Position numbers and translations under genes: made by a program | Shown: piece after piece, positions 206 to 51,995 of the stretch | How the letters are laid out: every line of letters begins with the position of its first letter | How positions within the stretch are numbered: position 1 is the first letter of the stretch | Assembly: GCA_964016885.1 (NCBI GenBank) | Contig: OZ024741.1 | Location: 409,386,001-409,450,000, forward strand | DNA length: 64,000 nt | Direction: 5' to 3' | Origin: Eledone cirrhosa | Lineage: Eukaryota | Notes under the pieces: generated by a model | Database searches by the model: none | What the model saw: only the letters and a program-made list of their open reading frames with translations | Told to the model about the DNA's origin: nothing

Positions 206-814
206 TATATATACGGCCCCTTAATTGTTGAGCTAATTCAGTTGAATAGGCTCGGCTGCTATTTCTGGCTGTCAATGGTCCTATTCACGAGACTGGGATG
301 ACGTTCAATGAGCGTATTTTTTTTTAAAATGCAACACGTGGTTCGAATCATTCACAGATTTGCAATTGCTTTGTAAACACAGATGGTTATTTTTCTTCTC
401 CTTTGGTGAACATCCGAGAATTTAACTGCTGTGATTTATGGATTAATAGGTGAAATATATTTCTTACTTAAAGAAATATATACAAAGGAGATTAATCATT
501 TTAAAAGGTATCTATATTTGAAGTTCTAGTCAAACTTTAATTAGTTACCTACCTAGCTATGTGTGCCTACATTCTTTACAAATTATTCCTTGCGATTGTT
601 TGATGTATTTATTTTATATATATATATATGTCAATCTATTTCTAGTTGATATATATAGATATATATATTAGCTTACCTGTAAGTTGGCAAGAACAGATTT
701 AATTTGCTCTAAAACTGAAGTTTCGGTATTGTTTAGTAACTCTGATAAGCTGTCGGAACTGTCCTGTTTACCAATCTGTTTGGGAGCAGCTAAATTCTGC
801 CGGACATCGGTCAA

Positions 815-1017
815 GCAGTCTGAAATATGAAGATGATAAGTATAAGATAGAGCTGCTAACTCTCCTCATCTAGAGATCACATCTCTACTACAATAGACAT
901 GAGGTTAGAATTTCTAAGGAAGGACTCACTCAACAGATTTCATAGTCAAAGTGAACTGGCTGGAGAGCCAGAGATAGACCATGAACAAGAAGATTAGATA
1001 ACATCCATATGGTTGGT
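815..1017 (+). pseudogene. Decayed 3' end of an RTE-clade (Rex3/Expander-like) LINE ORF that runs into the 56-bp satellite
   Basis: The frame starting at 850 reads ELLTLLI*RSHLYYNRHEVRISKEGLTQQIS*SK*TGWRARDRP*TRRLDNIHMVG. This is colinear with the RTE C-terminal motif EPLLLxIERSQLRWxGHxxRM...TGRRxRGRPRTRWxD (recalled, aligned by eye). Confidence 0.7.
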
Positions 1018-4000
1018 GAAGAGCCAGAGATAGACCATGAACGAGAAGATTAGATAACATCCATATGGTTGGTGGAGAGCCAGAGATAGACCATGAACAA
1101 GAAGGTTAGATAACATCCATATGGTTGGTGGAGAGCCAGAGATAGACCATGAACAAGAAGGTTAGATAACATCCATATGGTTGGTGGAGAGCCAGAGATA
1201 GACCATGAACAAGAAGGTTAGATAACATCCATATGACTGGTGGAGAGACAGAGATAGACCATGAACAAGAAGGTTAGATAACATACATATGGTTGGTGGA
1301 GAGCCAGAGATAGACCATGAAGAAGAAGGTTAGATAACATCCATATGGTTGGTGGAGAGACAGAGATAGACCATGAACAAGAAGGTTAGACAACATCCAT
1401 ATGGCTGGTAGTGAGACAGAGATAGACCATGAACAAGAAGGTTAGACAACATCCATATGGTTGGTGGAGAGACAGAGATAGACCATGAACAAGAAGGTTA
1501 GATAACATCCGTATGACTGGTGGAGAGACAGAGATAGACCATGAACAAGAAGGTTAGATAACATCCATATGGTTGGTGGAGAGACAGAGATAGACCATGA
1601 ACAAGAAGGTTAGATAACATCCATATGGTTGGTGGAGAGACAGAGATAGACCAGGAACAAGAAGGTTAGATAACATCCATATGACTGGTGGAGAGACACA
1701 GATAGACCATGAACAATAAGGTTAGATAACATCCATATGACTGGTGGAGAGACACAGATAGACCATGAACAAGAAGGTTAGATAACATCTATATGACTGG
1801 TGGAGAGACAGAGATAGACCATGAAAAAGAAGGTTAGATAACATCCATATGACTGGTGGAGAGACACAGATAGACCATGAACAAGAAGGTTAGATAACAT
1901 CCATATGGTTGGTGGAGAGACAGAGATAGACCATGAAGAAGAAGGTTAGATAACATCCATATGGTTGGTGGAGAGCCAGAGATAGACCATGAACAAGAAG
2001 GTTAGATAACATCCATATGGTTGGTGGAGAGACAGAGATAGACCATGAAGAAGAAGGTTAGATAACATCCATATGGTTGGTGGAGAGCCAGAGATAGACC
2101 ATGAACAAGAAGGTTAGATGACATACATATGGTTGGTGGAGAGACAGAGATAGACCATGAACAAGAAGGTTAGATGACATCCATATGGTTGGTGGAGAGA
2201 CAGAGATAGACCATGAACAAGAAGGTTAGATAACATCCATATGGTTGGTGGAGAGCCAGAGATAGACCATGAACAAGAAGGTTAGATGACATCCATATGG
2301 TTGGTGGAGAGACAGAGATAGACCATGAACAAGAAGGTTAGATAACATCCATATGACTGGTGGAGAGACAGAGATAGACCATGAACAAGAAGGTTAGATA
2401 ACATCCATATGACTGGTGGAGAGACAGAGATAGACCATGAACAAGAAGGTTAGATAACATCCATATGACTGGTGGGGAGACAGAGATAGACCATGAACAA
2501 GAAGGTTAGATAACATCCATATGACTGGTGGGGAGACAGAGATAGATCATGAACAAGAAGGTTAGATAACATCCATATGGTTGGTGGAGAGACAGAGATA
2601 GACCATGAACAAGAAGGTTAGACAACATACATATGGCTGTTAGAGAGACAGAGATAGACCATGAACAAGAAGGTTAGACAACAACCATATGGTTGGTGGA
2701 GAGACAGAGTTAGACCATGAACAACAAGGTTAGATAACATCCATATGACTGGTGGAGAGACAGAGATAAACCATGAACAATAAGGTTAGATAACATCCAT
2801 ATGACTGGTGGAGAGACAGAGATAGACCATGAACAAGAAGGTTAGATAACATCCATATGACTGGTGGAGAGACACAAATAGACCATGAACAAGAAGGTTA
2901 GATAACATCCATATGACTGGTGGAGAGACAGAGATAGACCATGAACAAGAAGGTTAGATAACATCCATATGACTGGTGGAGAGACACAGATAGACCATGA
3001 ACAAGAAGGTTAGATAACATCCATATGACTGGTGGAGAGACAGAGATAGACCATGAACAATAAGGTTAGATAACATCCATATGACTGGTGGAGAGACACA
3101 GATAGACCATGAACAAGAAGGTTAGATAACATCCATATGACTGGTGGAGAGACACAGATAGACCATGAACAAGAAGGTTAGATAACATCCATATGACTGG
3201 TGGAGAGACACAGATAGACTATGAACAAGAAGGTTAGATAACATCCATATGACTGGTGGAGAGACACAGATAGACCATGAACAAGAAGGTTAGATAACAT
3301 CCATATGGTTGGTGGAGAGCCAGAGATAGACCATGAACAAGAAGGTTAGATAACATCCATATGGTTGGTGGGGAGACAGAGATAGACCATGAACAAGAAG
3401 GTTAGATAACATCCATATGGTTGGTGGAGAGACAGAGATAGACCATGAACAAGAAGGTTAGATAACATCCATATGACTGGTGGAGAGACAGAGATAGACC
3501 ATGAACAAGAAGGTTAGATAACATCCATATGGTTGGTGGAGTGACAGAGATAGACCATGAACAAGAAGGGTAGATAACATCCATATGGTTGGTGGAGAGA
3601 CAGAGATAGACCATGAACAAGAAGGTTAGATAACATCCATATGACTGGTGGAGAGACAGAGATAGACCATGAACAAGAAGGTTAGATAACATCCATATGG
3701 TTGGTGGAGAGACAGAGATAGACCATGAACAAGAAGGTTAAATAACATCCATATGACTGGTGGAGAGACAGAGATAGACCATGAACAAGAAGGTTAGATA
3801 ACATCCATATGGTTGGTGGAGAGACAGAGATAGACCATGAACAAGAAGGTTAGATAACATCCATATGACTGGTGGAGAGACAGAGATAGACCATGAACAA
3901 GAAGGTTAGATAACATCCATATGACTGGTGGAGAGACACAGATAGACCATGAACAAGAAGGGTAGATAACATCCATATGACTGGTGGGGAGACACAGATA

Positions 4001-7000
4001 GACCATGAAGAAGAAGGTTAGATAACATCCATATGACTGGTGGAGAGACAGAGATAGACCATGAACAAGAAGGTTAGATGACATCCATATGACTGGTGGG
4101 GAGACACAGATAGACCATGAACAATAAGGTTAGATAACATCCATATGACTGGTGGAGAGACAGAGATAGACCATGAACAAGAAGGTTAGATAACATCCAT
4201 ATGACTGGTGGGGAGACAGAGATAGACCATGAACAAGAAGGTTAGATAACATCCATATGGTTGGTGGAGAGCCAGAGATAGACCATGAACAAGGTTAGAT
4301 AACATCCATATGGTTGGTGGAGAGACACAGATAGACCATGAACAAGAAGGTTAGATAACATCCATATGGTTGGTGGAGAGACAGAGATAGACCATGAACA
4401 AGAAGGTTAGATAACATCCATATGACTGGTGGAGAGACAGAGATAGACCATGAACAAGAAGGTTAGATAACATCCATATGACTGGTGGAGAGACACAGAT
4501 AGACCATGAACAAGAAGGGTAGATAACATCCATATGACTGGTGGGGAGACACAGATAGACCATGAAGAAGAATTTTAGATAACATCCATATGACTGGTGG
4601 AGAGACAGAGATACACCATGAACAATAAGGTTAGATAACATCCATATGACTGGTGGAGAGACAGAGATAGACCATGAACAATAAGGTTAGATAACATCCA
4701 TATGGTTGGTGGAGAGACAGAGATAGACCATGAACAAGAAGGTTAGATAACATCCATATGACTGGTGGGGAGACACAGATAGACCATGAACAATAAGGTT
4801 AGATAACATCCATATGGTTGGTGGGGAGACACAGATAGACCATGAACAAGAAGGTTAGATAACATCCATATGACTGGTGGGGAGACAGAGATAGACCATG
4901 AAGAAGAAGGTTAGATAACATCCATATGACTGGTGGAGAGACAGAGATAGACCATGAACAAGAAGGTTAGATAACATCCATATGACTGGTGGAGAGACAG
5001 AGATAGACCATGAACAAGAAGGTTAGATAACATCCATATGACTGGTGGGGAGACAGAGATAGACCATGAAGAAGAAGGTTAGATAACATCCATATGACTG
5101 GTGGAGAGACAGAGATAGACCATGAAGAAGAAGGTTAGATAACATCCATATGACTGGTGGAGAGACAGAGATAGACCATGAACAATAAGGTTAGATAACA
5201 TCCATATGGTTGGTGGAGAGACAGAGATAGACCTTGAACAAGAAGGTTAGATAACATCCATATGACTGGTGGAGAGCCAGAGATAGACCATGAACAATAA
5301 GGTTAGATAACATCCATATGGTTGGTGGAGAGACAGAGATAGACCATGAACAAGAAGGTTAGATAACATCCATATGGTTGGTGGAGAGACAGAGATAGAC
5401 CATGAACAAGAAGGTTAGATAACATCCATATGGTTGGTGGAGAGACAGAGATAGACCATGAACAAGAAGGTTAGATAACATCCATATGGTTGGTGGAGAG
5501 ACAGAGATAGACCATGAACAAGAAGGTTAGATAACATCCATATGGTTGGTGGAGAGACAGAGATAGACCATGAACAAGAAGGTTAGATAACATCCATATG
5601 GTTGGTGGAGAGACAGAGATAGACCATGAACAAGAAGGTTAGATAACATCCATATGGTTGGTGGAGAGACAGAGATACACCATGAACAATAAGGTTAGAT
5701 AACATCCATATGACTGGTGGAGAGACAGAGATAGACCATGAACAAGAAGGTTAGATAACATCCATGACTGGTGGAGAGACAGAGATAGACCATGAACAAG
5801 AAGGTTAGATAACATCCATATGACTGGTGGAGAGACAGAGATACACCATGAACAAGAAGGTTAGATAACATCCATATGACTGGTGGAGAGACAGAGATAC
5901 ACCATGAACAAGAAGGTTAGATAACATCCATATGACTGGTGGGGAGACAGAGATATACCATGAACAAGAAGGTTAGATAACATCCATATGACTGGTGGAG
6001 AGACAGAGATAGACCATGAACAAGAAGGTTAGATAACATCCATATGGCTGGTGGAGGGACAGAGTTAGACCATGAACAAGAAGGTTAGATAACATCCATA
6101 TGGTTGGTGGAGAGACAGAGATAGACCATGAACAAGAAGGTTAGATAACATCCATATGGTTGGTGGAGAGACAGAGATAGACCATGAACAAGAAGGTTAG
6201 ATAACATCCATATGGTTGGTGGAGAGACAGAGATATACCATGAACAAGAAGGTTAGATAACATCCATATGGTTGGTGGAGAGACAGAGATAGACCATGAA
6301 CAAGAAGGTTAGATAACATCCATGTGACTGGTGGAGAGACAGAGATAGACCATGAACAAGAAGGTTAGATAACATCCATGTGACTGGCGGAGAGACAGAG
6401 ATAGACCATGAACAAGAAGGTTAGATAACATCCATGTGACTGGTGGAGAGACAGAGATAGACCATGAACAAGAAGGTTAGATAACATCCATATGGTTGGT
6501 GGAGAGACAGAGATAGACCATGAACAAGAAGGTTAGATAACATCCATATGGTTGGTGGAGAGACAGAGATAGACCATGAACAAGAAGGTTAGATAACATC
6601 CATATGGTTGGTGGAGAGACAGAGATAGACCATGAACAAGAAGGTTAGATAACATCCATATGGTTGGTGGAGAGACAGAGATAGACCATGAACAAGAAGG
6701 TTAGATAACATCTATATGACTGGTGGAGAGACAGAGATAGACCATGAACAATAAGGTTAGATAACATCCATATGACTGGTGGGGAGACAGAGATATACCA
6801 TGAACAAGAAGGTTAGATAACATCCATATGACTGGTGGAGAGACAGAGATAGACCATGAACAAGAAGATTAGATAACATCCATATGGTTGGTGGAGAGAC
6901 AGAGATAGACCACGAACAAGAAGGTTAGACAGCATCCATATGACTGGTGGAGAGACAGAGATAGACCATGAACAAGAAGGTTAGATAACATCCATATGAC

Positions 7001-10000
7001 TGGTGGGGAGACAGAGATATACCATGAACAAGAAGGTTAGATAACATCCATATGACTGGTGGAGAGACAGAGATAGACCATGAACAAGAAGGTTAGATAA
7101 CATCCATATGGCTGGTGGAGAGACAGAGTTAGACCATGAACAAGAAGGTTAGATAACATCCATATGGTTGGTGGAGAGACAGAGATAGACCATGAACAAG
7201 AAGGTTAGATAACATCCATATGGTTGGTGGAGAGACAGAGATAGACCATGAACAAGAAGGTTAGATAACATCCATATGACTGGTGGAGAGACACAGATAG
7301 ACCATGAACAAGAAGGTTAGATAACATCCATATGACTGGTGGAGAGACACAGATAGACCATGAACAAGAAGGTTAGATAACATCCATATGACTGGTGGAG
7401 AGACACAGATAGACCATGAACAAGAAGGTTAGATAACATCCATATGGTTGGTGGAGAGACAGAGATAGACCATGAACAAGAAGGTTAGATAACATCCATA
7501 CGACTGGTGGAGAGACAGAGATAGACCATGAACAAGAAGGTTGGATAACATCCATATGACTGGTGGAGAGACACAGATAGACCATGAACAAGAAGGTTAG
7601 ATAACATCCATATGACTGGTGGAGAGACAGAGATAGACCATGAACAAGAAGGTTAGATAACATCCATATGACTGGTGGAGAGACACAGATAGACCATGAA
7701 CAAGAAGGTTAGATAATATCCATATGGTTGGTGGAGAGACAGAGATAGACCATGAACAAGAAGGTTAGATAACATCCATATGACTGGTGGAGAGACACAG
7801 ATAGACCATGAACAAGAAGGTTAGATAACATCCATATGACTGGTGGAGAGACACAGATAGACCATGAACAAGAAGGTTAGATAATATCTATATGACTGGT
7901 GGAGAGACAGAGATAGACCATGAACAAGAAGGTTAGATAACATCCATATGGCTGGTGGAGAGACAGAGTTAGACCATGAACAAGAAGGTTAGATAACATC
8001 CATATGGTTGGTGGAGAGACAGAGATAGACCATGAACAAGAAGGTTAGATAACATCCATATGGTTGGTGGAGAGACAGAGATAGACCATGAACAAGAAGG
8101 TTAGATAACATCCATATGACTGGTGGAGAGACACAGATAGACCATGAACAAGAAGGTTAGATAACATCCATATGACTGGTGGAGAGACACAGATAGACCA
8201 TGAACAAGAAGGTTAGATAACATCCATATGACTGGTGGAGAGACACAGATAGACCATGAACAAGAAGGTTAGATAACATCCATATGGTTGGTGGAGAGAC
8301 AGAGATAGACCATGAACAAGAAGGTTAGATAACATCCATACGACTGGTGGAGAGACAGAGATAGACCATGAACAAGAAGGTTAGATAACATCCATATGGT
8401 TGGTGGAGAGACAGAGATAGACCATGAAGAAGAAGGTTAGACAACATCCATATGGTTGGTGGAGAGACAGAGATAGACCATGAACAAGAAGGTTAGATAA
8501 CATCCATATGACTGGTGGAGAGACACAGATAGACCATGAACAAGAAGGTTAGATAACATCCATACGACTGGTGGAGAGACAGAGATAGACCATGAACAAG
8601 AAGGTTAGATAACATCCATATGACTGGTGGAGAGATACAGATAGACCATGAACAAGAAGGTTAGATAACATCCATATGACTGGTGGAGAGACACAGATAG
8701 ACCATGAACAAGAAGGTTAGATAACATCCATATGGTTGGTGGAGAGACAGAGATAGACCATGAACAAGAAGGTTAGATAACATCCATACGACTGGTGGAG
8801 AGACAGAGATAGACCATGAACAAGAAGGTTAGATAACATCCATATGACTGGTGGAGAGACACAGATAGACCATGAACAAGAAGGTTAGATAACATCCATA
8901 CGACTGGTGGAGAGACAGAGATAGACCATGAACAAGAAGGTTAGATAACATCCATATGACTGGTGGAGAGACACAGATAGACCATGAACAAGAAGGTTAG
9001 ATAACATCCATATGACTGGTGGAGAGACACAGATAGACCATGAACAAGAAGGTTAGATAATATCTATATGACTGGTGGAGAGACAGAGATAGACCATGAA
9101 CAAGAAGGTTAGATAACATCCATATGGCTGGTGGAGAGACAGAGTTAGACCATGAACAAGAAGGTTAGATAACATCCATATGGTTGGTGGAGAGACAGAG
9201 ATAGACCATGAACAAGAAGGTTAGATAACATCCATATGGTTGGTGGAGAGACAGAGATAGACCATGAACAAGAAGGTTAGATAACATCCATATGACTGGT
9301 GGAGAGACACAGATAGACCATGAACAAGAAGGTTAGATAACATCCATATGACTGGTGGAGAGACACAGATAGACCATGAACAAGAAGGTTAGATAACATC
9401 CATATGACTGGTGGAGAGACACAGATAGACCATGAACAAGAAGGTTAGATAACATCCATATGGTTGGTGGAGAGACAGAGATAGACCATGAACAAGAAGG
9501 TTAGATAACATCCATACGACTGGTGGAGAGACAGAGATAGACCATGAACAAGAAGGTTAGATAACATCCATATGGTTGGTGTAGAGACAGAGATAGACCA
9601 TGAAGAAGAAGGTTAGACAACATCCATATGGTTGGTGGAGAGACAGAGATAGACCATGAACAAGAAGGTTAGATAACATCCATATGACTGGTGGAGAGAC
9701 ACAGATAGACCATGAACAAGAAGGTTAGATAACATCCATACGACTGGTGGAGAGACAGAGATAGACCATGAACAAGAAGGTTAGATAACATCCATATGAC
9801 TGGTGGAGAGACACAGATAGACCATGAACAAGAAGGTTAGATAACATCCATATGGTTGGTGGAGAGACAGAGATAGACCATGAACAAGAAGGTTAGATAA
9901 CATCCATATGACTGGTGGAGAGACACAGATAGACCATGAACAAGAAGGTTAGATAACATCCATATGGTTGGTGGAGAGACAGAGATAGACCATGAACAAG

Positions 10001-13000
10001 AAGGTTAGATAACATCCATACGACTGGTGGAGAGACAGAGATAGACCATGAACAAGAAGGTTAGATAACATCCATATGACTGGTGGAGAGACACAGATAG
10101 ACCATGAACAAGAAGGTTAGATAACATCCATACGACTGGTGGAGAGACAGAGATAGACCATGAACAAGAAGGTTGGATAACATCCATATGACTGGTGGAG
10201 AGACACAGATAGACCATGAACAAGAAGGTTAGATAACATCCATATGACTGGTGGAGAGACAGAGATAGACCATGAACAAGAAGGTTAGATAACATCCATA
10301 TGACTGGTGGAGAGACACAGATAGACCATGAACAAGAAGGTTAGATAATATCCATATGGTTGGTGGAGAGACAGAGATAGACCATGAACAAGAAGGTTAG
10401 ATAACATCCATACGACTGGTGGAGAGACAGAGATAGACCATGAACAAGAAGGTTAGATAACATCCATATGACTGGTGGAGAGACACAGATAGACCATGAA
10501 CAAGAAGGTTAGATAACATCCATACGACTGGTGGAGAGACAGAGATAGACCATGAACAAGAAGGTTAGATAACATCCATATGACTGGTGGAGAGATACAG
10601 ATAGACCATGAACAAGAAGGTTAGATAACATCCATATGACTGGTGGAGAGACACAGATAGACCATGAACAAGAAGGTTAGATAACATCCATATGGTTGGT
10701 GGAGAGACAGAGATAGACCATGAACAAGAAGGTTAGATAACATCCATACGACTGGTGGAGAGACAGAGATAGACCATGAACAAGAAGGTTAGATAACATC
10801 CATATGACTGGTGGAGAGACACAGATAGACCATGAACAAGAAGGTTAGATAACATCCATACGACTGGTGGAGAGACAGAGATAGACCATGAACAAGAAGG
10901 TTAGATAACATCCATATGACTGGTGGAGAGACACAGATAGACCATGAACAAGAAGGTTAGATAACATCCATACGACTGGTGGAGAGACAGAGATAGACCA
11001 TGAACAATAAGGTTAGATAACATCCATATGACTGGTGGAGAGACAGAGATAGACCATGAAAAAGAAGGTTAGATAACATCCATACGACTGGTGGAGAGAC
11101 AGAGATAGACCATGAACAATAAGGTTAGATAACATCCATATGACTGGTGGAGAGACAGAGATAGACCATGAAAAAGAAGGTTAGATAACATCCATATGAC
11201 TGGTGGAGAGACAGAGATAGACCATGAACAAGAAGGTTAGATAACATCCATATGACTGGTGGAGAGCCAGAGATAGACCATGAACAAGAAGGTTAGATAA
11301 CATCCATATGGTTGGTGGAGAGACAGAGATAGACCATGAACAAGAAGGTTAGACAACATCCATATGACTGGTGGAGAGACAGAGATAGACCATGAACAAG
11401 AAGGTTAGATAACATCCATATGGTTGGTGGAGAGACAGAGATAGACCATGAACAAGAAGGTTAGATAACATCCATATGGTTGGTGGAGAGACAGAGATAG
11501 ACCATGAACAAGAAGGTTAGACAACATCCATATGGTTGGTGGAGAGACAGAGATAGACCATGAACAAGAAGGTTAGATAACATCCATATTGTTGGTGGAG
11601 AGACAGAGATAGACCATGAACAAGAAGGTTAGATAACATCCATATGACTGGTGGAGAGACAGAGATAGACCATGAACAAGAAGGTTAGATAACATCCATA
11701 TGGTTGGTGGAGAGACAGAGATAGACCATGAACAAGAAGGTTAGATAACATCCATATGGTTGGTGGAGGGACAGAGATAGACCATGAACAAGAAGGTTAG
11801 ACAACATCCATATGGTTGGTGGAGAGACAGAGATAGACCATGAACAAGAAGGTTAGATAACATCCATATGGTTGGTGGAGAGACAGAGATAGACCATGAA
11901 CAAGAAGGTTAGATAACATCCATATGACTGGTGGAGAGACAGAGATAGACCTTGAACAAGAAGGTTAGATAACATCCATATGACTGGTGGGGAGACAGAG
12001 ATAGACCATGAACAAGAAGGTTAGACAGCATCCATATGGTTGGTGGAGAGACAGAGATAGACCATGAACAAGAAGGTTAGATAACATCCATATGGTTGGT
12101 GGAGAGACAGAGATAGACCATGAACAAGAAGGTTAGATAACATCCATATGGTTGGTGGAGAGACAGAGATAGACCATGAACAAGAAGGTTAGATAACATC
12201 CATATGACTGGTGGAGAGACAGAGATAGACCATGAACAAGAAGGTTAGATAACATCCATATGACTGGTGGAGAGACAGAGATAGACCATGAACAAGAAGG
12301 TTAGATAACATCCATATGGTTGGTGGAGAGACAGAGATAGACCATGAACAAGAAGGTTAGATAACATCCATATGGTTGGTGGAGAGACAGAGATAGACCA
12401 TGAACAAGAAGGTTAGATAACATCCATATGGTTGGTGGAGAGACAGAGATAGACCATGAACAAGAAGGTTAGATAACATCCATATGACTGGTGGAGAGAC
12501 AGAGATAGACCATGAACAAGAAGGTTAGATAACATCCATATGGTTGGTGGAGAGACAGAGATAGACCATGAACAAGAAGGTTAGATAACATCCATATGGT
12601 TGGTGGAGAGACAGAGATAGACCATGAACAAGAAGGTTAGATAACATCCATATGGTTGGTGGAGAGACAGAGATAGACCATGAACAAGAAGGTTAGATAA
12701 CATCCATATGACTGGTGGAGAGACAGAGATAGACCATGAACAAGAAGGTTAGATAACATCCATATGGTTGGTGGAGAGACAGAGATAGACCATGAACAAG
12801 GTTAGATAACATCCATATGGTTGGTGGAGAGACAGAGATAGACCATGAACAAGAAGGTTAGATAACATCCATATGGTTGGTGGAGAGACAGAGATAGACC
12901 ATAAACAAGAAGGTTAGATAACATCCATATGGTTGGTGGAGAGACAGAGATAGACCATGAACAAGAAGGTTAGATAACATCCATATGGTTGGTGGAGAGA

Positions 13001-16000
13001 CAGAGATAGACCATGAACAAGAAGGTTAGATAACATCCATATGGTTGGTGGAGAGACAGAGATAGACCATGAACAAGAAGGTTAGATAACATCCATATGG
13101 TTGGTGGAGAGACAGAGATAGACCATGAACAAGAAGGTTACATAACATCCATATGGTTGGTGGAGAGACAGAGATAGACCATGAACAAGAAGGTTAGATA
13201 ACATCCATATGGTTGGTGGAGAGACAGAGATAGACCATGAACAAGAAGGTTAGATAACATCCATATGACTGGTGGAGAGACAGAGATAGACCATGAACAA
13301 GAAGGTTAGATAACATCCATATGGTTGGTGGAGAGACAGAGATAGACCATGAACAAGAAGGTTAGATAACATCCATATGGTTGGTGGAGAGACAGAGATA
13401 GACCATGAACAAGAAGGTTAGATAACATCCATATGACTGGTGGAGAGACACAGATAGACCATGAACAAGAAGGTTAGATAACATCCATACGACTGGTGGA
13501 GAGACAGAGATAGACCATGAACAAGAAGGTTGGATAACATCCATATGACTGGTGGAGAGACACAGATAGATCATGAACAAGAAGGTTAGATAACATCCAT
13601 ATGACTGGTGGAGAGACAGAGATAGACCATGAACAAGAAGGTTAGATAACATCCATATGACTGGTGGAGAGACACAGATAGACCATGAACAAGAAGGTTA
13701 GATAATATCCATATGGTTGGTGGAGAGACAGAGATAGACCATGAACAAGAAGGTTAGATAACATCCATACGACTGGTGGAGAGACAGAGATAGACCATGA
13801 ACAAGAAGGTTGGATAACATCCATATGACTGGTGGAGAGACACAGATAGACCATGAACAAGAAGGTTAGATAACATCCATATGACTGGTGGAGAGACAGA
13901 GATAGACCATGAACAAGAAGGTTAGATAATATCCATATGGTTGGTGGAGAGACAGAGATAGACCATGAACAAGAAGGTTAGATAACATCCATATGGTTGG
14001 TGGAGAGACACAGATAGACCATGAACAAGAAGGTTAGATAATATCCATATGGTTGGTGGAGAGACAGAGATAGACCATGAACAAGAAGGTTAGATAACAT
14101 CCATACGACTGGTGGAGAGACAGAGATAGACCATGAACAAGAAGGTTAGATAACATCCATATGACTGGTGGAGAGACACAGATAGACCATGAACAAGAAG
14201 GTTAGATAACATCCATACGACTGGTGGAGAGACAGAGATAGACCATGAACAAGAAGGTTAGATAACATCCATATGACTGGTGGAGAGATACAGATAGACC
14301 ATGAACAAGAAGGTTAGATAACATCCATATGACTGGTGGAGAGACACAGATAGACCATGAACAAGAAGGTTAGATAACATCCATATGGTTGGTGGAGAGA
14401 CAGAGATAGACAATGAACAAGAAGGTTAGATAACATCCATACGACTGGTGGAGAGACAGAGATAGACCATGAACAAGAAGGTTAGATAACATCCATATGA
14501 CTGGTGGAGAGACACAGATAGACCATGAACAAGAAGGTTAGATAACATCCATACGACTGGTGGAGAGACAGAGATAGACCATGAACAAGAAGGTTAGATA
14601 ACATCCATACGACTGGTGGAGAGACACAGATAGACCATGAACAAGAAGGTTAGATAACATCCATATGACTGGTGGAGAGACACAGATAGACCATGAACAA
14701 GAACGTTAGATAATATCTATATGACTGGTGGAGAGACAGAGATAGACCATGAACAAGAAGGTTAGATAACATCCATATGACTGGTGGAGAGACACAGATA
14801 GACCATGAAAAAGAAGGTTAGATAACATCCATACGACTGGTGGAGAGACAGAGATAGACCATGAACAATAAGGTTAGATAACATCCATATGACTGGTGGA
14901 GAGACAGAGATAGACCATGAAAAAGAAGGTTAGATAACATCCATACGACTGGTGGAGAGACAGAGATAGACCATGAACAATAAGGTTAGATAACATCCAT
15001 ATGACTGGTGGAGAGACAGAGATAGACCATGAAAAAGAAGGTTAGATAACATCCATATGACTGGTGGAGAGACAGAGATAGACCATGAACAAGAAGGTTA
15101 GATAACATCCATATGACTGGTGGAGAGCCAGAGATAGACCATGAACAAGAAGGTTAGATAACATCCATATGGTTGGTGGAGAGACAGAGATAGACCATGA
15201 ACAAGAAGGTTAGACAACATCCATATGACTGGTGGAGAGACAGAGATAGACCATGAACAAGAAGGTTAGATAACATCCATATGGTTGGTGGAGAGACAGA
15301 GATAGACCATGAACAAGAAGGTTAGACAACATCCATATGGTTGGTGGAGAGACAGAGATAGACCATGAACAAGAAGGTTAGATAACATCCATATTGTTGG
15401 TGGAGAGACAGAGATAGACCATGAACAAGAAGGTTAGATAACATCCATATGACTGGTGGAGAGACAGAGATAGACCATGAACAAGAAGGTTAGATAACAT
15501 CCATATGGTTGGTGGAGAGACAGAGATAGACCATGAACAAGAAGGTTAGATAACATCCATATGGTTGGTGGAGAGACAGAGATAGACCATGAACAAGAAG
15601 GTTAGATAACATCCATATGACTGGTGGAGAGACAGAGATAGACCATGAACAAGAAGGTTAGATAACATCCATATGACTGGTGGAGAGACAGAGATAGACC
15701 ATGAACAAGAAGGTTAGATAACATCCATATGGTTGGTGGAGAGACAGAGATAGACCATGAACAAGAAGGTTAGATAACATCCATATGGTTGGTGGAGAGA
15801 CAGAGATAGACCATGAACAAGAAGGTTAGATAACATCCATATGGTTGGTGGAGAGACAGAGATAGACCATGAACAAGAAGGTTAGATAACATCCATATGA
15901 CTGGTGGAGAGACAGAGATAGACCATGAACAAGAAGGTTAGATAACATCCATATGGTTGGTGGAGAGACAGAGATAGACCATGAACAAGAAGGTTAGATA

Positions 16001-19000
16001 ACATCCATATGGTTGGTGGAGAGACAGAGATAGACCATGAACAAGAAGGTTAGATAACATCCATATGGTTGGTGGAGAGACAGAGATAGACCATGAACAA
16101 GAAGGTTAGATAACATCCATATTGTTGGTGGAGAGACAGAGATAGACCATGAACAAGAAGGTTAGATAACATCCATATGGTTGGTGGAGAGACAGAGATA
16201 GACCATGAACAAGAAGGTTAGATAACATCCATATGACTGGTGGAGAGACAGAGATAGACCATGAACAAGAAGGTTAGATAACATCCATACGACTGGTGGA
16301 GAGACAGAGATAGACCATGAACAAGAAGGTTAGATAACATCCATATGACTGGTGGAGAGACAGAGATAGACCATGAACAAGAAGGTTAGATAACATCCAT
16401 ACGACTGGTGGAGAGACAGAGATAGACCATGAACAAGAAGGTTAGATAACATCCATATGACTGGTGGAGAGACACAGATAGACCATGAACAAGAAGGTTA
16501 GATAACATCCATATGACTGGTGGAGAGACACAGATAGACCATGAACAAGAACGTTAGATAATATCTATATGACTGGTGGAGAGACAGAGATAGACCATGA
16601 ACAAGAAGGTTAGATAACATCCATATGACTGGTGGAGAGACACAGATAGACCATGAAAAAGAAGGTTAGATAACATCCATACGACTGGTGGAGAGACAGA
16701 GATAGACCATGAACAATAAGGTTAGATAACATCCATATGACTGGTGGAGAGACAGAGATAGACCATGAAAAAGAAGGTTAGATAACATCCATACGACTGG
16801 TGGAGAGACAGAGATAGACCATGAACAATAAGGTTAGATAACATCCATATGACTGGTGGAGAGACAGAGATAGACCATGAAAAAGAAGGTTAGATAACAT
16901 CCATATGACTGGTGGAGAGACAGAGATAGACCATGAACAAGAAGGTTAGATAACATCCATATGACTGGTGGAGAGCCAGAGATAGACCATGAACAAGAAG
17001 GTTAGATAACATCCATATGGTTGGTGGAGAGACAGAGATAGACCATGAACAAGAAGGTTAGACAACATCCATATGACTGGTGGAGAGACAGAGATAGACC
17101 ATGAACAAGAAGGTTAGATAACATCCATATGGTTGGTGGAGAGACAGAGATAGACCATGAACAAGAAGGTTAGATAACATCCATATGGTTGGTGGAGAGA
17201 CAGAGATAGACCATGAACAAGAAGGTTAGACAACATCCATATGGTTGGTGGAGAGACAGAGATAGACCATGAACAAGAAGGTTAGATAACATCCATATTG
17301 TTGGTGGAGAGACAGAGATAGACCATGAACAAGAAGGTTAGATAACATCCATATGACTGGTGGAGAGACAGAGATAGACCATGAACAAGAAGGTTAGATA
17401 ACATCCATATGGTTGGTGGAGAGACAGAGATAGACCATGAACAAGAAGGTTAGATAACATCCATATGGTTGGTGGAGAGACAGAGATAGACCATGAACAA
17501 GAAGGTTAGATAACATCCATATGACTGGTGGAGAGACAGAGATAGACCATGAACAAGAAGGTTAGATAACATCCATATGACTGGTGGAGAGACAGAGATA
17601 GACCATGAACAAGAAGGTTAGATAACATCCATATGGTTGGTGGATAGACAGAGATAGACCATGAACAAGAAGGTTAGATAACATCCATATGGTTGGTGGA
17701 GAGACAGAGATAGACCATGAACAAGAAGGTTAGATAACATCCATATGGTTGGTGGAGAGACAGAGATAGACCATGAACAAGAAGGTTAGATAACATCCAT
17801 ATGACTGGTGGAGAGACAGAGATAGACCATGAACAAGAAGGTTAGATAACATCCATATGGTTGGTGGAGAGACAGAGATAGACCATGAACAAGAAGGTTA
17901 GATAACATCCATATGGTTGGTGGAGAGACAGAGATAGACCATGAACAAGAAGGTTAGATAACATCCATATGGTTGGTGGAGAGACAGAGATAGACCATGA
18001 ACAAGAAGGTTAGATAACATCCATATGACTGGTGGAGAGACAGAGATAGACCATGAACAAGAAGGTTAGATAACATCCATATGGTTGGTGGAGAGACAGA
18101 GATAGACCATGAACAAGAAGGTTAGATAACATCCATATGGTTGGTGGAGAGACAGAGATAGACCATGAACAAGAAGGTTAGATAACATCCATATGGTTGG
18201 TGGAGAGACAGAGATAGACCATGAACAAGAAGGTTAGATAACATCCATATGGTTGGTGGAGAGACAGAGATAGACCATGAACAAGAAGGTTAGATAACAT
18301 CCATATGGTTGGTGGAGAGACAGAGATAGACCATGAACAAGAAGGTTAGATAACATCCATATGGTTGGTGGAGAGACAGAGATAGACCATGAACAAGAAG
18401 GTTAGATAACATCCATATGGTTGGTGGAGAGACAGAGATAGACCATGAACAAGAAGGTTAGATAACATCCATATGGTTGGTGGAGAGACAGAGATAGACC
18501 ATGAACAAGAAGGTTAGATAACATCCATATGGTTGGTGGAGAGACAGAGATAGACCATGAACAAGAAGGTTAGATAACATCCATATGACTGGTGGAGAGA
18601 CAGAGATAGACCATGAACAAGAAGGTTAGATAACATCCATATGACTGGTGGAGAGACACAGATAGACCATGAACAAGAAGGTTAGATAACATCCATACGA
18701 CTGGTGGAGAGACAGAGATAGACCATGAACAAGAAGGTTAGATAACATCCATATGACTGGTGGAGAGACACAGATAGACCATGAACAAGAAGGTTAGATA
18801 ACATCCATATGGTTGGTGGAGAGACAGAGATAGACCATGAACAAGAAGGTTAGATAACATCCATATGACTGGTGGAGAGACACAGATAGACCATGAACAA
18901 GAAGGTTAGATAACATCCATATGGTTGGTGGAGAGACAGAGATAGACCATGAACAAGAAGGTTAGATAACATCCATACGACTGGTGGAGAGACAGAGATA

Positions 19001-22000
19001 GACCATGAACAAGAAGGTTAGATAACATCCATATGACTGGTGGAGAGACACAGATAGACCATGAACAAGAAGGTTAGATAACATCCATACGACTGGTGGA
19101 GAGACAGAGATAGACCATGAACAAGAAGGTTGGATAACATCCATATGACTGGTGGAGAGACACAGATAGACCATGAACAAGAAGGTTAGATAACATCCAT
19201 ATGACTGGTGGAGAGACAGAGATAGACCATGAACAAGAAGGTTAGATAACATCCATATGACTGGTGGAGAGACACAGATAGACCATGAACAAGAAGGTTA
19301 GATAATATCCATATGGTTGGTGGAGAGACAGAGATAGACCATGAACAAGAAGGTTAGATAACATCCATACGACTGGTGGAGAGACAGAGATAGACCATGA
19401 ACAAGAAGGTTAGATAACATCCATATGACTGGTGGAGAGACACAGATAGACCATGAACAAGAAGGTTAGATAACATCCATACGACTGGTGGAGAGACAGA
19501 GATAGACCATGAACAAGAAGGTTAGATAACATCCATATGACTGGTGGAGAGATACAGATAGACCATGAACAAGAAGGTTAGATAACATCCATATGACTGG
19601 TGGAGAGACACAGATAGACCATGAACAAGAAGGTTAGATAACATCCATATGGTTGGTGGAGAGACAGAGATAGACCATGAACAAGAAGGTTAGATAACAT
19701 CCATACGACTGGTGGAGAGACAGAGATAGACCATGAACAAGAAGGTTAGATAACATCCATATGACTGGTGGAGAGACACAGATAGACCATGAACAAGAAG
19801 GTTAGATAACATCCATACGACTGGTGGAGAGACAGAGATAGACCATGAACAAGAAGGTTAGATAACATCCATATGACTGGTGGAGAGACACAGATAGACC
19901 ATGAACAAGAAGGTTAGATAACATCCATACGACTGGTGGAGAGACAGAGATAGACCATGAACAATAAGGTTAGATAACATCCATATGACTGGTGGAGAGA
20001 CAGAGATAGACCATGAAAAAGAAGGTTAGATAACATCCATACGACTGGTGGAGAGACAGAGATAGACCATGAACAATAAGGTTAGATAACATCCATATGA
20101 CTGGTGGAGAGACAGAGATAGACCATGAAAAAGAAGGTTAGATAACATCCATATGACTGGTGGAGAGACAGAGATAGACCATGAACAAGAAGGTTAGATA
20201 ACATCCATATGACTGGTGGAGAGCCAGAGATAGACCATGAACAAGAAGGTTAGATAACATCCATATGGTTGGTGGAGAGACAGAGATAGACCATGAACAA
20301 GAAGGTTAGACAACATCCATATGACTGGTGGAGAGACAGAGATAGACCATGAACAAGAAGGTTAGATAACATCCATATGGTTGGTGGAGAGACAGAGATA
20401 GACCATGAACAAGAAGGTTAGATAACATCCATATGGTTGGTGGAGAGACAGAGATAGACCATGAACAAGAAGGTTAGACAACATCCATATGGTTGGTGGA
20501 GAGACAGAGATAGACCATGAACAAGAAGGTTAGATAACATCCATATTGTTGGTGGAGAGACAGAGATAGACCATGAACAAGAAGGTTAGATAACATCCAT
20601 ATGACTGGTGGAGAGACAGAGATAGACCATGAACAAGAAGGTTAGATAACATCCATATGGTTGGTGGAGAGACAGAGATAGACCATGAACAAGAAGGTTA
20701 GATAACATCCATATGGTTGGTGGAGGGACAGAGATAGACCATGAACAAGAAGGTTAGACAACATCCATATGGTTGGTGGAGAGACAGAGATAGACCATGA
20801 ACAAGAAGGTTAGATAACATCCATATGGTTGGTGGAGAGACAGAGATAGACCATGAACAAGAAGGTTAGATAACATCCATATGACTGGTGGAGAGACAGA
20901 GATAGACCTTGAACAAGAAGGTTAGATAACATCCATATGACTGGTGGGGAGACAGAGATAGACCATGAACAAGAAGGTTAGACAGCATCCATATGGTTGG
21001 TGGAGAGACAGAGATAGACCATGAACAAGAAGGTTAGATAACATCCATATGGTTGGTGGAGAGACAGAGATAGACCATGAACAAGAAGGTTAGATAACAT
21101 CCATATGGTTGGTGGAGAGACAGAGATAGACCATGAACAAGAAGGTTAGATAACATCCATATGACTGGTGGAGAGACAGAGATAGACCATGAACAAGAAG
21201 GTTAGATAACATCCATATGACTGGTGGAGAGACAGAGATAGACCATGAACAAGAAGGTTAGATAACATCCATATGGTTGGTGGAGAGACAGAGATAGACC
21301 ATGAACAAGAAGGTTAGATAACATCCATATGGTTGGTGGAGAGACAGAGATAGACCATGAACAAGAAGGTTAGATAACATCCATATGGTTGGTGGAGAGA
21401 CAGAGATAGACCATGAACAAGAAGGTTAGATAACATCCATATGACTGGTGGAGAGACACAGATAGACCATGAACAAGAAGGTTAGATAACATCCATATGG
21501 TTGGTGGAGAGACAGAGATAGACCATGAACAAGAAGGTTAGATAACATCCATATGGTTGGTGGAGAGACAGAGATAGACCATGAACAAGAAGGTTAGATA
21601 ACATCCATATGGTTGGTGGAGAGACAGAGATAGACCATGAACAAGAAGGTTAGATAACATCCATATGACTGGTGGAGAGACAGAGATAGACCATGAACAA
21701 GAAGGTTAGATAACATCCATATGGTTGGTGGAGAGACAGAGATAGACCATGAACAAGGTTAGATAACATCCATATGGTTGGTGGAGAGACAGAGATAGAC
21801 CATGAACAAGAAGGTTAGATAACATCCATATGGTTGGTGGAGAGACAGAGATAGACCATAAACAAGAAGGTTAGATAACATCCATATGGTTGGTGGAGAG
21901 ACAGAGATAGACCATGAACAAGAAGGTTAGATAACATCCATATGGTTGGTGGAGAGACAGAGATAGACCATGAACAAGAAGGGTAGATAACATCCATATG

Positions 22001-25000
22001 GTTGGTGGAGAGACAGAGATAGACCATGAACAAGAAGGTTAGATAACATCCATATGGTTGGTGGAGAGACAGAGATAGACCATGAACAAGAAGGTTACAT
22101 AACATCCATATGGTTGGTGGAGAGACAGAGATAGACCATGAACAAGAAGGTTAGATAACATCCATATGGTTGGTGGAGAGACAGAGATAGACCATGAACA
22201 AGAAGGTTAGATAACATCCATATGACTGGTGGAGAGACAGAGATAGACCATGAACAAGAAGGTTAGATAACATCCATATGGTTGGTGGAGAGACAGAGAT
22301 AGACCATGAACAAGAAGGTTAGATAACATCCATATGGTTGGTGGAGAGACACAGATAGACCATGAACAAGAAGGTTAGATAACATCCATATGACTGGTGG
22401 AGAGACACAGATAGACCATGAACAAGAAGGTTAGATAACATCCATACGACTGGTGGAGAGACAGAGATAGACCATGAACAAGAAGGTTGGATAACATCCA
22501 TATGACTGGTGGAGAGACACAGATAGATCATGAACAAGAAGGTTAGATAACATCCATATGACTGGTGGAGAGACAGAGATAGACCATGAACAAGAAGGTT
22601 AGATAACATCCATATGACTGGTGGAGAGACACAGATAGACCATGAACAAGAAGGTTAGATAATATCCATATGGTTGGTGGAGAGACAGAGATAGACCATG
22701 AACAAGAAGGTTAGATAACATCCATACGACTGGTGGAGAGACAGAGATAGACCATGAACAAGAAGGTTGGATAACATCCATATGACTGGTGGAGAGACAC
22801 AGATAGACCATGAACAAGAAGGTTAGATAACATCCATATGACTGGTGGAGAGACAGAGATAGACCATGAACAAGAAGGTTAGATAATATCCATATGGTTG
22901 GTGGAGAGACAGAGATAGACCATGAACAAGAAGGTTAGATAACATCCATATGGTTGGTGGAGAGACACAGATAGACCATGAACAAGAAGGTTAGATAATA
23001 TCCATATGGTTGGTGGAGAGACAGAGATAGACCATGAACAAGAAGGTTAGATAACATCCATACGACTGGTGGAGAGACAGAGATAGACCATGAACAAGAA
23101 GGTTAGATAACATCCATATGACTGGTGGAGAGACACAGATAGACCATGAACAAGAAGGTTAGATAACATCCATACGACTGGTGGAGAGACAGAGATAGAC
23201 CATGAACAAGAAGGTTAGATAACATCCATATGACTGGTGGAGAGATACAGATAGACCATGAACAAGAAGGTTAGATAACATCCATATGACTGGTGGAGAG
23301 ACACAGATAGACCATGAACAAGAAGGTTAGATAACATCCATATGGTTGGTGGAGAGACAGAGATAGACAATGAACAAGAAGGTTAGATAACATCCATACG
23401 ACTGGTGGAGAGACAGAGATAGACCATGAACAAGAAGATTAGATAACATCCATATGACTGGTGGAGAGACACAGATAGACCATGAACAAGAAGGTTAGAT
23501 AACATCCATACGACTGGTGGAGAGACAGAGATAGACCATGAACAAGAAGGTTAGATAACATCCATATGACTGGTGGAGAGACACAGATAGACCATGAACA
23601 AGAAGGTTAGATAACATCCATATGACTGGTGGAGAGACACAGATAGACCATGAACAAGAACGTTAGATAATATCTATATGACTGGTGGAGAGACAGAGAT
23701 AGACCATGAACAAGAAGGTTAGATAACATCCATATGACTGGTGGAGAGACACAGATAGACCATGAAAAAGAAGGTTAGATAACATCCATACGACTGGTGG
23801 AGAGACAGAGATAGACCATGAACAATAAGGTTAGATAACATCCATATGACTGGTGGAGAGACAGAGATAGACCATGAAAAAGAAGGTTAGATAACATCCA
23901 TACGACTGGTGGAGAGACAGAGATAGACCATGAACAATAAGGTTAGATAACATCCATATGACTGGTGGAGAGACAGAGATAGACCATGAAAAAGAAGGTT
24001 AGATAACATCCATATGACTGGTGGAGAGACAGAGATAGACCATGAACAAGAAGGTTAGATAACATCCATATGACTGGTGGAGAGCCAGAGATAGACCATG
24101 AACAAGAAGGTTAGATAACATCCATATGGTTGGTGGAGAGACAGAGATAGACCATGAACAAGAAGGTTAGACAACATCCATATGACTGGTGGAGAGACAG
24201 AGATAGACCATGAACAAGAAGGTTAGATAACATCCATATGGTTGGTGGAGAGACAGAGATAGACCATGAACAAGAAGGTTAGACAACATCCATATGGTTG
24301 GTGGAGAGACAGAGATAGACCATGAACAAGAAGGTTAGATAACATCCATATTGTTGGTGGAGAGACAGAGATAGACCATGAACAAGAAGGTTAGATAACA
24401 TCCATATGACTGGTGGAGAGACAGAGATAGACCATGAACAAGAAGGTTAGATAACATCCATATGGTTGGTGGAGAGACAGAGATAGACCATGAACAAGAA
24501 GGTTAGATAACATCCATATGGTTGGTGGAGAGACAGAGATAGACCATGAACAAGAAGGTTAGATAACATCCATATGACTGGTGGAGAGACAGAGATAGAC
24601 CATGAACAAGAAGGTTAGATAACATCCATATGACTGGTGGAGAGACAGAGATAGACCATGAACAAGAAGGTTAGATAACATCCATATGGTTGGTGGAGAG
24701 ACAGAGATAGACCATGAACAAGAAGGTTAGATAACATCCATATGGTTGGTGGAGAGACAGAGATAGACCATGAACAAGAAGGTTAGATAACATCCATATG
24801 GTTGGTGGAGAGACAGAGATAGACCATGAACAAGAAGGTTAGATAACATCCATATGACTGGTGGAGAGACAGAGATAGACCATGAACAAGAAGGTTAGAT
24901 AACATCCATATGGTTGGTGGAGAGACAGAGATAGACCATGAACAAGAAGGTTAGATAACATCCATATGGTTGGTGGAGAGACAGAGATAGACCATGAACA

Positions 25001-41763: not shown

Positions 41764-41963
41764 NNNNNNNNNNNNNNNNNNNNNNNNNNNNNNNNNNNNN
41801 NNNNNNNNNNNNNNNNNNNNNNNNNNNNNNNNNNNNNNNNNNNNNNNNNNNNNNNNNNNNNNNNNNNNNNNNNNNNNNNNNNNNNNNNNNNNNNNNNNNN
41901 NNNNNNNNNNNNNNNNNNNNNNNNNNNNNNNNNNNNNNNNNNNNNNNNNNNNNNNNNNNNNNN
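41764..41963. other. Assembly gap (200 N)
   Basis: Exactly 200 Ns. The round size is typical of a scaffolding placeholder, so true distance and adjacency are unknown. Confidence 0.99.
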
Positions 41964-50900: not shown

Positions 50901-51303
50901 CTAACTACTACCAACATTACTCCTACTACCAACATTACTAACTACTATCAACATTACTACTACTACCAACATTACTACTACTACCAACATTACTACTACT
51001 ACCAACATTACTACTACTACCAACATTACTACTACTACCAACATTACTAACTACTACCAACATTACTCCTACTACCAACATTACTAACTACTATCAACAT
51101 TACTAAGTACTACCAACATTACTACTACTACCAACATTACTACTACTACCAACATTACTACTACTACCAACATTACTACTACTACCAACATTACTACTAC
51201 TACCAACATTACTACTACTACCAACATTACTACTACTACCAACATTACTACTACTACCAACATTACTACTACTACGAACATTACTATCTACTACCAACAT
51301 TAC
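41964..51303 (+). repeat. Minisatellite array CCAACATTA(CTA)n, mostly 18- and 21-bp units (occasionally 15 or 24)
   Basis: Direct: units ccaacatta+(cta)2-5. The + strand is almost G-free. A 1-nt-insertion variant (ctaactacta) becomes frequent after ~49550. Confidence 0.99.
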
Positions 51304-51682
51304 TACCACCACCACCACCACCTCCACAACCACTACCACCACTAAGGCCACCACCACCACCACGACTACCACCATCACCACTACCACTACCACCACCATC
51401 AACACCACTTCCACACAACCACCATCATCACCACCACCATCATTACCACCAATAGCACCACCACTACGACCACTACCACCACCACCATCACCACCACCAC
51501 CACCACAACTACCACCACCACCACCACCACCACAACCATCACCACCACTACCACCACCAAAACCACCATCACCACCACCACCACTACCACCACCACAAAC
51601 ACTACCACCACCACCACCACCACCACACCACCACCACCACACCACCACCACATCCACCACCACACCACTACCACCACCACCA
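51304..51682 (+). repeat. Degenerate (CCA)n/(CTA)n trinucleotide tract
   Basis: Direct: cca-rich imperfect triplets contiguous with the minisatellite. Confidence 0.92.
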
Positions 51683-51846
51683 AATATATATATTTTTTCC
51701 TTTTTTTGTCCCTCTCTCTCTCTCTTTTCTGGTTTAGAAAATGATTAAAACGAAATGTTTTACTTTGTGAAGTGTTAAGGTATTAGTTGATTTATTTATT
51801 ATTTAACAATGGCATTTATTTATCTATTTATATATTTAATTATTGT

Positions 51847-51884: not shown

Positions 51885-51995
51885 TTAGTGAAATGTATTA
51901 GTGTGGTGTCGCACATGTTAAACAGAAGATGCAGAAAGAATAATGTTATATACAAACAAGGTTTAAGAAGTGAAAAGAAAAAAAAAGAAAAAAAT

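What the first reader, a model, noticed from the sequence alone, without database searches (positions are those of the whole stretch)
815..1100. A 41-kb satellite with its origin still visible: the 56-bp monomer is a piece of an RTE LINE coding sequence
Seen: unique DNA at 850-954 and the first monomer read as one continuous decayed frame, ELLTLLI*RSHLYYNRHEVRISKEGLTQQIS*SK*TGWRARDRP*TRRLDNIHMVG. Known: RTE/Rex3-type ORFs end in ...IERSQLRWxGHxxRM...TGRRxRGRPRTRWxD. The stop in RP*TR is TGA where CGA (Arg) is expected, i.e. CpG decay, and one monomer at ~6911 has cacga. Similar sequences at both ends of the unit (actggctggag vs gttggtggag) offer a microhomology for the first duplication. Inference: ~729 copies were amplified in place from 56 nt of a dead retrotransposon, with the ancestral flank still attached.
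Basis: partly seen in the sequence, partly recalled or inferred. Interest (0 to 1): 0.75.

Follow-up and report, generated by a model that had tools for sequence, protein, structure and literature searches.

The report
Giant intronic minisatellite from dead LINE
At least 729 copies of a 56-base piece of an old, broken jumping gene (a Rex3-like LINE) sit at one place in an intron of an octopus VPS51 gene, still joined to the rest of that jumping-gene copy, and they likely multiplied on the spot long after it died, a clear example of a known process.

Summary
Confirmed, but a known kind of event. Window 845-1016 (flank plus monomer 1) aligns without gaps over 172 bp to a dispersed LINE family whose longer copies carry reverse transcriptase and whose C-terminus matches Rex3/RTE proteins (HMM 26.1 bits; best of 1,000 shuffles 3.8). 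Flank and monomer are equally decayed (23.3%, 23.2%), and the monomer junction occurs 709 times in the genome, all 709 in this window. So the array likely grew in place, late, from an already dead copy.

Corrections: the array ends at an assembly gap, so 729 is a minimum (crude read depth suggests 0.8-1.6 times that). The 'cacga' monomer is one of 22 singleton variants and is no evidence.

New context: the array lies in a VPS51 intron, 141 bp from an exon; the first half of the gene is not found in the assembly. The same family forms shorter arrays at 20 of 73 loci examined. This scan noted similar LINE-derived arrays before on other DNA of this genome.

The parts
677..819 (-). VPS51 coding exon (about residues 428-474), GT donor at 676-675
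   Evidence: 817-677 is 100% identical over 47 aa to four octopus VPS51 proteins; tblastn; a spliced 2,424-nt contig of run X8 joins it to other exons on both sides
820..844 (-). 3' splice acceptor (CAG at 822-820) and pyrimidine tract of the intron that holds the LINE remnant and the array
   Evidence: read from the sequence; branch point not tested
845..960 (+). Unamplified 5' part of a 5'-truncated Rex3-like RTE LINE copy (C-terminal coding region), antisense to VPS51
   Evidence: 27 of 116 differences to the family consensus, no gap; HMM 10.3 bits against at most 2.1 in shuffles
957..963 (+). 7-bp motif TGGCTGG, identical to the family's sequence 57 bp downstream; inferred seed of the first duplication
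   Evidence: 0.33% of 24,040 control position pairs reach 7 bp; T961 in 1 of 61 other copies
961..1016 (+). Monomer 1, still colinear with the LINE frame
   Evidence: 13 of 56 differences to the family; 11 of them carried by at least 632 of 721 monomers; contigs of runs X5 and X6 read 640-1017 with no difference, X7 640-992
982..984 (+). TGA stop from CGA by CpG decay, present before amplification
   Evidence: T at 982 in 719 of 721 monomers; family codon counts
961..41763 (+). 56-bp tandem array, 729 monomers, 92 distinct 56-bp types, mean pairwise difference 4.3%
   Evidence: single locus
9636..27550 (+). Tandem duplication of a 160-monomer block (8,957 bp)
   Evidence: 11 differences in 8,957 bases
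23910..35110 (+). Tandem duplication of a 100-monomer block (5.6 kb)
   Evidence: 6 differences in 5,544 bases compared
36903..41715 (+). Tandem duplication of a 43-monomer block (2,406 bp)
   Evidence: 6 differences in 2,406 bases
41764..41963 (.). Assembly gap (200 N) that hides the array's far end, the expected ~130-bp LINE 3' remainder and probably the first half of VPS51
   Evidence: VPS51 residues 1-423 not found with four queries; remainder length from the family consensus

Best explanation
The array is a single-locus 56-bp minisatellite of at least 729 copies whose unit is the C-terminal coding end of an old Rex3-like RTE LINE copy in a VPS51 intron, and it likely grew in place long after that copy died. 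Shown: homology, colinearity with the flank, equal decay, single locus in the assembly, intronic position. Inferred steps: (1) a 5'-truncated copy of about 300 bp inserted antisense 25 bp from the splice acceptor; (2) it decayed by about 23%, gaining the TGA stop; (3) changes at 957 and 961 made a perfect 7-bp direct repeat with a site 57 bp downstream, slippage or unequal exchange between them gave the first duplication, and the founder lost one base (57 to 56); (4) unequal exchange of ever larger blocks (43, 100, 160 monomers) expanded it, the last steps very recently. No function is indicated; the intron is spliced out, so the array is most likely neutral.
For: Ungapped 172-bp alignment across the flank-monomer border. 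Flank 27/116 and monomer 13/56 from the family, while 0 of 61 family copies are as diverged over the flank and 1 of 61 over the monomer (medians 9.5% and 7.1%). 11 of monomer 1's 13 derived bases are in at least 632 of 721 monomers, so decay came first. The family base C at unit position 8 survives in 6 of the first 12 monomers and 18 of the other 709. Junction count 709 genome-wide, 709 in the window. RT in longer family copies (RVT_1 E 7.5e-6 and 3.9e-6); nearest full-length proteins are endonuclease-RT at 55-58% identity. 7-bp match reached by 0.33% of control pairs. Block duplications 0.11-0.25% apart. Flank-to-array border present in read contigs. Spliced VPS51 contig.
Against: The far end is missing: no LINE continuation after a monomer in the assembly (0 matches) and no such loose end listed in three runs, so the flanking repeat and any target-site duplication are not seen. 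The microhomology is one base out of register; at offset 56 there is none at the junction. T961 could also come from conversion by the array rather than precede it. The 61 comparison copies were picked as best hits, so they are biased to young copies and the copy's true source subfamily may be unsampled. The assembly is incomplete here, so a second array could be unassembled. The large blocks could partly be assembly duplication. No orthologous site was examined.
Confidence: 0.9

Rival explanations
1. The repeat was born in another LINE copy and was copied into this one by gene conversion or repair, as earlier notes of this scan propose for the 65-bp and other units.
For: The same family has shared junctions at many loci: the 123-bp junction matches exactly 1,464 times genome-wide and the 65-bp unit occurs at 2 of 73 loci examined. 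Parts of the genome are unassembled.
Against: This junction occurs nowhere else in the assembly with up to 1 mismatch; flank and monomer share the same unusual decay; read depth leaves little room for a large second array.
Confidence: 0.05
2. The tandem duplication arose during reverse transcription at insertion (template jump) and was homogenised since.
For: PMC3389668 suggests that retrotransposition can initiate such repeats; complete turnover of an old array can also fix old mutations in all units.
Against: Monomers differ by 4.3% from each other but 21-34% from the family; the edge monomer, which should escape homogenisation, is 2 bases from the GT-type consensus; the perfect 7-bp repeat depends on T961, found in 1 of 61 other copies.
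Confidence: 0.04
3. The origin is right but the size is largely an assembly artefact (blocks duplicated by the assembler).
For: Three near-identical blocks account for 303 of 729 monomers; the contig breaks inside the array.
Against: Blocks differ at 11, 6 and 6 bases; monomer-to-flank depth ratios of 267, 519 and 687 compare with 340, 479 and 479 expected from the assembled array. Depth is crude and the three runs are one sample.
Confidence: 0.1

Closest known systems
TE-derived minisatellites of the human genome (Ahmed and Liang 2012, PMC3389668; passages seen)
   Same: Unit is an internal piece of a transposon copy, expands by local duplication inside that copy; 7,276 of 31,472 (23%) human minisatellites are of this kind; a minority start from 5-20-bp flanking direct repeats, mostly 7 bp (Haber-Louis model as described there).
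   Different: Human cases average 2-3 units for Alu; this one has at least 729 units and multi-kb block duplications, and comes from a Rex3-like RTE coding region.
LINE-ORF-derived satellites: PROsat (L1 ORF2), Pvc 20 (L1 ORF2), chicken HinfI (CR1), common cetacean satellite (as listed in PMC9659126; passages seen)
   Same: Monomer derives from the 3' part or ORF of a LINE.
   Different: Those are known by similarity of the monomer; here the array is single-locus and still colinear with its parent copy. I did not read the primary papers.
Lathyrus sativus satellites from arrays inside LTR retrotransposons (PMC7004042; abstract seen)
   Same: Many short arrays inside dispersed retroelement copies, a few of which expand greatly.
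   Different: There the short arrays are part of the element and expand mainly in primary constrictions; here the 56-bp duplication is private to one dead LINE copy in an intron 7 Mb from a scaffold end.
Rex3 / RTE subgroup of non-LTR retrotransposons (PMC2887409 passages and supplement file 2 passages; PMC6274825 passages)
   Same: Endonuclease-RT-C-terminal layout and the same C-terminal motifs as the zebrafish and stickleback Rex3 proteins shown there; GAA repeats just after the stop.
   Different: The fish Rex3 signature tail of GATG/GATC repeats was not seen in the octopus copies; no tree with named references was built.

Membership tests
RTE-clade LINE, Rex3/RTE subgroup (source element) | Reverse transcriptase upstream of the matched region in the same family | tested here: met
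   RVT_1 in 2 of 3 family stretches scanned (E 7.5e-6, 3.9e-6; partial, below Pfam's cut-off); L075 1206-2000 runs from the RT end into the region homologous to the window flank
RTE-clade LINE, Rex3/RTE subgroup (source element) | AP endonuclease and RT in one ORF of about 1,000 aa | tested here: inconclusive
   True of the nearest full-length homologues P0008 and P0010; no full-length octopus copy was fetched
RTE-clade LINE, Rex3/RTE subgroup (source element) | Rex3-type C-terminal domain | tested here: met
   HMM 26.1 bits against at most 3.8; family translation matches DrRex3-a01 and GaRex3-a01 C-termini by eye
RTE-clade LINE, Rex3/RTE subgroup (source element) | Short tandem-repeat tail just after the stop | tested here: met
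   GAA runs end many family copies; the window copy's own tail is missing
Rex3 in the strict sense (fish) | GATG/GATC tandem tail after two GAA (PMC6274825) | tested here: not met
   Not seen in the 3' ends of 18 copies printed; hence 'Rex3-like'
RTE-clade LINE, Rex3/RTE subgroup (source element) | Target-site duplication | tested here: inconclusive
   Shared flank words of 4-10 bp in 18 family copies, no control; not testable for the window copy
RTE-clade LINE, Rex3/RTE subgroup (source element) | Placement in an RT tree with named references | not tested
   Named references were seen only as supplement text
TE-derived minisatellite (criteria of PMC3389668) | Unit at least 20 bp, GC at least 40%, units at least 95% alike | tested here: met
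   56 bp, GC 0.41, 96% matches, 4.3% mean pairwise difference
TE-derived minisatellite (criteria of PMC3389668) | Unit at least 70% similar to a TE consensus, or array overlaps a TE | tested here: met
   75-77% to the family consensus and colinear with the copy
TE-derived minisatellite (criteria of PMC3389668) | Local expansion: units match each other better than any other locus | tested here: met
   (150 of 382 matches listed, all in the array)
TE-derived minisatellite (criteria of PMC3389668) | Flanking direct repeat of 5-20 bp (Haber-Louis initiation) | tested here: inconclusive
   7-bp repeat inferred from the family consensus, one base out of register; far end missing
Satellite DNA in the strict sense (definition recalled) | Arrays of hundreds of kb or more, or at several loci | tested here: not met
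   One locus, 40.8 kb assembled, crude depth 0.8-1.6 times that
Satellite DNA in the strict sense (definition recalled) | Heterochromatic or centromeric location | not testable with these tools
   Lies in an intron of a transcribed gene, 6.9 Mb from the end of a 416-Mb scaffold

The most novel reading that the evidence does not exclude
This locus keeps the whole record of a minisatellite's birth: a private point change in a LINE copy dead for tens of millions of years created a 7-bp direct repeat, that alone triggered the first duplication, and the array then ran to more than 40 kb within 141 bp of an exon of a working gene. With the 123-, 111-, 99-, 97- and 65-bp arrays from the neighbouring 120 bases of the same family, the coding 3' end of this Rex3-like LINE would be a genome-wide nursery of tandem repeats in octopus.
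Probability: 0.45. Interest if true: 0.45.

Novelty: new member of a known kind. Interest (0 to 1): 0.3.

Why it matters
Origins of long tandem repeats are usually erased; PMC3389668 could assign an initiating mechanism to only 6% of human TE-derived repeats. Here the parent copy, the order of events (decay first, amplification later) and a candidate 7-bp trigger can be read at one locus and tested in related octopuses. It is also a practical point: the contig breaks inside this array and the first half of VPS51 is not found in the assembly. It does not show a new mechanism or a function, and the scan has noted several larger LINE-derived arrays in this genome.

Tried and rejected
Far end of the array: a pattern for monomer end plus LINE continuation gave 0 matches; loose ends in three runs of one sample were other LINE copies or monomer 2. 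Upstream VPS51 exons: PF08700 rang only at L064, which does not match VPS51 protein P0003; full protein found only residues of about 424 onward under a stricter first look; a 132-aa piece and a 24-base exon motif with 1 mismatch gave nothing; absence from the assembly is likely, not proven. A dimer DNA search was saturated by the array itself (63 candidates, 40 scored, 150 of 382 matches listed) and could not test for other loci; the pattern count replaced it. Another individual: one reduced-representation run laid 0 reads, no test. No related animal genome is held, so orthology was not tested. The cacga monomer as a relic: rejected (1 of 721; 22 singletons). The AC junction variant equals the flank's bases 955-956 in the 57-bp register, which could mark a second crossover, but 6 GC intermediates (all left of 9,100) fit two successive transitions equally well: unresolved. 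A coding role for the array: every frame stops in each unit. Literature: 7 searches listed no paper on this array or on RTE-derived arrays in octopus; PMC13282606 has no occurrence of 'satellite' in its main text, its supplement was not read.

Full report
Observation. Tandem Repeats Finder gives a 56-bp array at 955-41763 with 729 copies and 96% matches. Cutting from 961 gives 729 monomers, 722 of 56 bp, 92 distinct types among the 721 complete ones, mean 1.6 differences to the consensus and 4.3% mean pairwise difference. The array runs into 200 N at 41764-41963, so its size is a minimum.

The flank is a dispersed repeat that runs through monomer 1. A search of the own genome with 700-955 found 1,349 candidates, 40 scored, matching only from about 845 on, at 73-84%. 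Fetched copies align on through 1008-1017. Against a majority consensus of 43 loci, 845-1016 aligns over 172 bp with no gap; the flank differs at 27 of 116 and monomer 1 at 13 of 56 bases. After 1016 the family goes on for about 130 bp to a stop and GAA repeats; the window goes on into monomer 2.

The family is a Rex3-like RTE LINE. Longer copies hold RT frames; two of three stretches scanned hit RVT_1 at E 7.5e-6 and 3.9e-6, partial and below Pfam's cut-off. A 265-aa open stretch of L075 finds 36 longer proteins at E at most 1e-20, the best 55-58% identical, about 1,050 aa, with endonuclease and RT domains. A profile of these 36 scores window 790-1016 at 26.1 bits at positions 885-942 of 983; the best of 1,000 shuffles scores 3.8. 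The family's C-terminus matches by eye the zebrafish and stickleback Rex3 proteins in supplement file 2 of PMC2887409 (passages), which places Rex3 in the RTE clade (passages). The GATG/GATC tail that PMC6274825 calls the Rex3 signature (passages) was not seen in 18 copies printed, so I say Rex3-like.

Born here. A 25-base junction pattern with up to one mismatch matches 709 times in 3.0 Gb and 709 times in the window. Of 73 distinct family loci, 61 span the region; none is as diverged as the window over the flank and one over the monomer (medians 9.5% and 7.1%; these copies were best hits and so lean young). Equal, unusual decay on both sides of the border points to one copy. Eleven of monomer 1's 13 derived bases are in at least 632 of 721 monomers, among them the stop (719 of 721), so most decay came before amplification. 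The family codon at the stop reads CGA 25, CAA 18, TGA 11 of 61, as expected for CpG decay. The cacga monomer is one of 22 singletons and adds nothing. The family base at unit position 8 is kept by 6 of the first 12 monomers and 18 of the other 709, so the left edge is the older part. On the scale quoted in PMC13282606 (distance 0.2 = 56 million years; first third of the text and passages read), the copy's distance of 0.28 would be nominally 70-80 million years and the array's spread a few million; both are rough, since the source subfamily is unknown and arrays do not keep a clock.

First duplication. Using the family's own continuation, TGGCTGG at 957-963 is matched exactly 57 bp downstream; 31 of 61 copies read TTGGCTGG there. 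With the same freedom of search, 0.33% of 24,040 control position pairs in the family reach 7 bp. T961 is found in 1 of 61 other copies, which would explain why this junction is private. The unit is 56 bp and the junction lacks the C, so a 1-bp loss in the founder must be assumed; at offset 56 there is no junction microhomology. I put this step at about 0.6. PMC3389668 (passages) describes such initiation from flanking repeats of mostly 7 bp for 300 of 7,276 human cases.

Expansion. Blocks of 160, 100 and 43 monomers are duplicated in tandem with 11 of 8,957, 6 of 5,544 and 6 of 2,406 bases different, as expected from unequal exchange. Read contigs support the border (640-1017 without a difference in X5 and X6, and a joint going back 56). 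Monomer-to-flank depth ratios are 267, 519 and 687 against 340, 479 and 479 computed from the assembly for the paths I infer those contigs to be; junction types give 0.7-1.6. The tool warns that depth is no copy number, and the three runs are one sample, perhaps the assembled one, so this only excludes a many-fold error.

Setting. 817-677 on the minus strand is 100% identical to octopus VPS51; later exons lie to the left. The LINE remnant starts 25 bp and the array 141 bp from the exon, on the intron side. A 2,424-nt contig of run X8 splices across this intron, and the same run holds a monomer contig. Residues 1-423 were not found with four queries, and right of the gap lie an 18-bp array and a Deltex-like exon on the other strand, so the gap likely hides the array's end and half the gene. 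The far end was not recovered. Other introns of the gene hold 60-, 52- and 96-bp arrays, and the site is 6.9 Mb from the scaffold end.

How special. Tandem arrays from the neighbouring part of the same family occur at 20 of 73 loci examined (123 bp at 16; 65 bp at 2; 111, 97 and 99 bp at one each, the 99-bp one beside a 65-bp array); the sample favours such loci because repeated words rank high. The 123-bp junction alone matches 1,464 times. Earlier notes of this scan report 99-, 65- and 48-bp LINE-derived arrays, some far larger, on other pieces of this genome; they are unchecked notes, used as leads; their conversion idea was tested here as a rival and is not supported for this array. LINE-derived tandem repeats are well described (PMC3389668; PMC9659126, passages; PMC7004042, abstract). 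Seven literature searches listed no paper on this array.

Verdict. A real, well-preserved, single-locus example of a known process, with a testable trigger and no sign of function. New member of a known kind; interest 0.3.

Noticed in passing
L004, L005, L006, L007, L014, L019, L021, L022, L024, L025, L026, L092, L093, L094, L103, L104: A 123-bp (41-codon, in-frame) tandem unit of the same LINE family with identical breakpoints at 16 of 73 loci, 2-15 copies each, with different 5' starts, unrelated flanks and often an intact GAA tail; its junction matches exactly 1,464 times genome-wide. No microhomology at its breakpoints. Either a subfamily that retrotransposed with the duplication or a junction spread by conversion.
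   Followed up: partly
L008, L020, L029, L110; G000:C24:11849250-11850454; G000:C2:397660764-397662373: Further arrays from the same 120-bp stretch of the family with units of 111, 65, 99, 97 and about 84 bp.
   Followed up: partly
L062 3395-5025, 5404-7683, 8671 to L061 7557: Three more tandem arrays in VPS51 introns left of the window: 96 bp x17, 52 bp x44, 60 bp x about 148; origins not tested.
   Followed up: no
window 41764-41963: VPS51 residues 1-423 were not found in the assembly although a spliced contig holds the upstream exon; the scaffold join at this gap may be wrong or hide much more than 200 bases.
   Followed up: partly
window 41964-51682: 9.4-kb array of an 18-bp unit built on TAC repeats, with no G on the + strand over kilobases, followed by 380 bp of (ACC)n.
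   Followed up: no
window 54482-55909 +: Long exon with a RING finger and the start of a Deltex C-terminal domain (DTC E 2.8e-6), a DTX3/DTX3L-like gene.
   Followed up: partly
window about 51690-52990: About 290-bp inverted repeats seen by eye around a decayed frame that looks like a GIY-YIG endonuclease of a Penelope-like element (name recalled).
   Followed up: no
window about 57700-59620 and 60915-61970, minus strand: Two truncated copies of a different RT-coding LINE interrupted by (TA)n; related copies in L062 and L063.
   Followed up: no
window about 62030-62640 and 63500-64000: A roughly 550-bp segment appears again in inverted orientation about 900 bp downstream, seen by eye.
   Followed up: no
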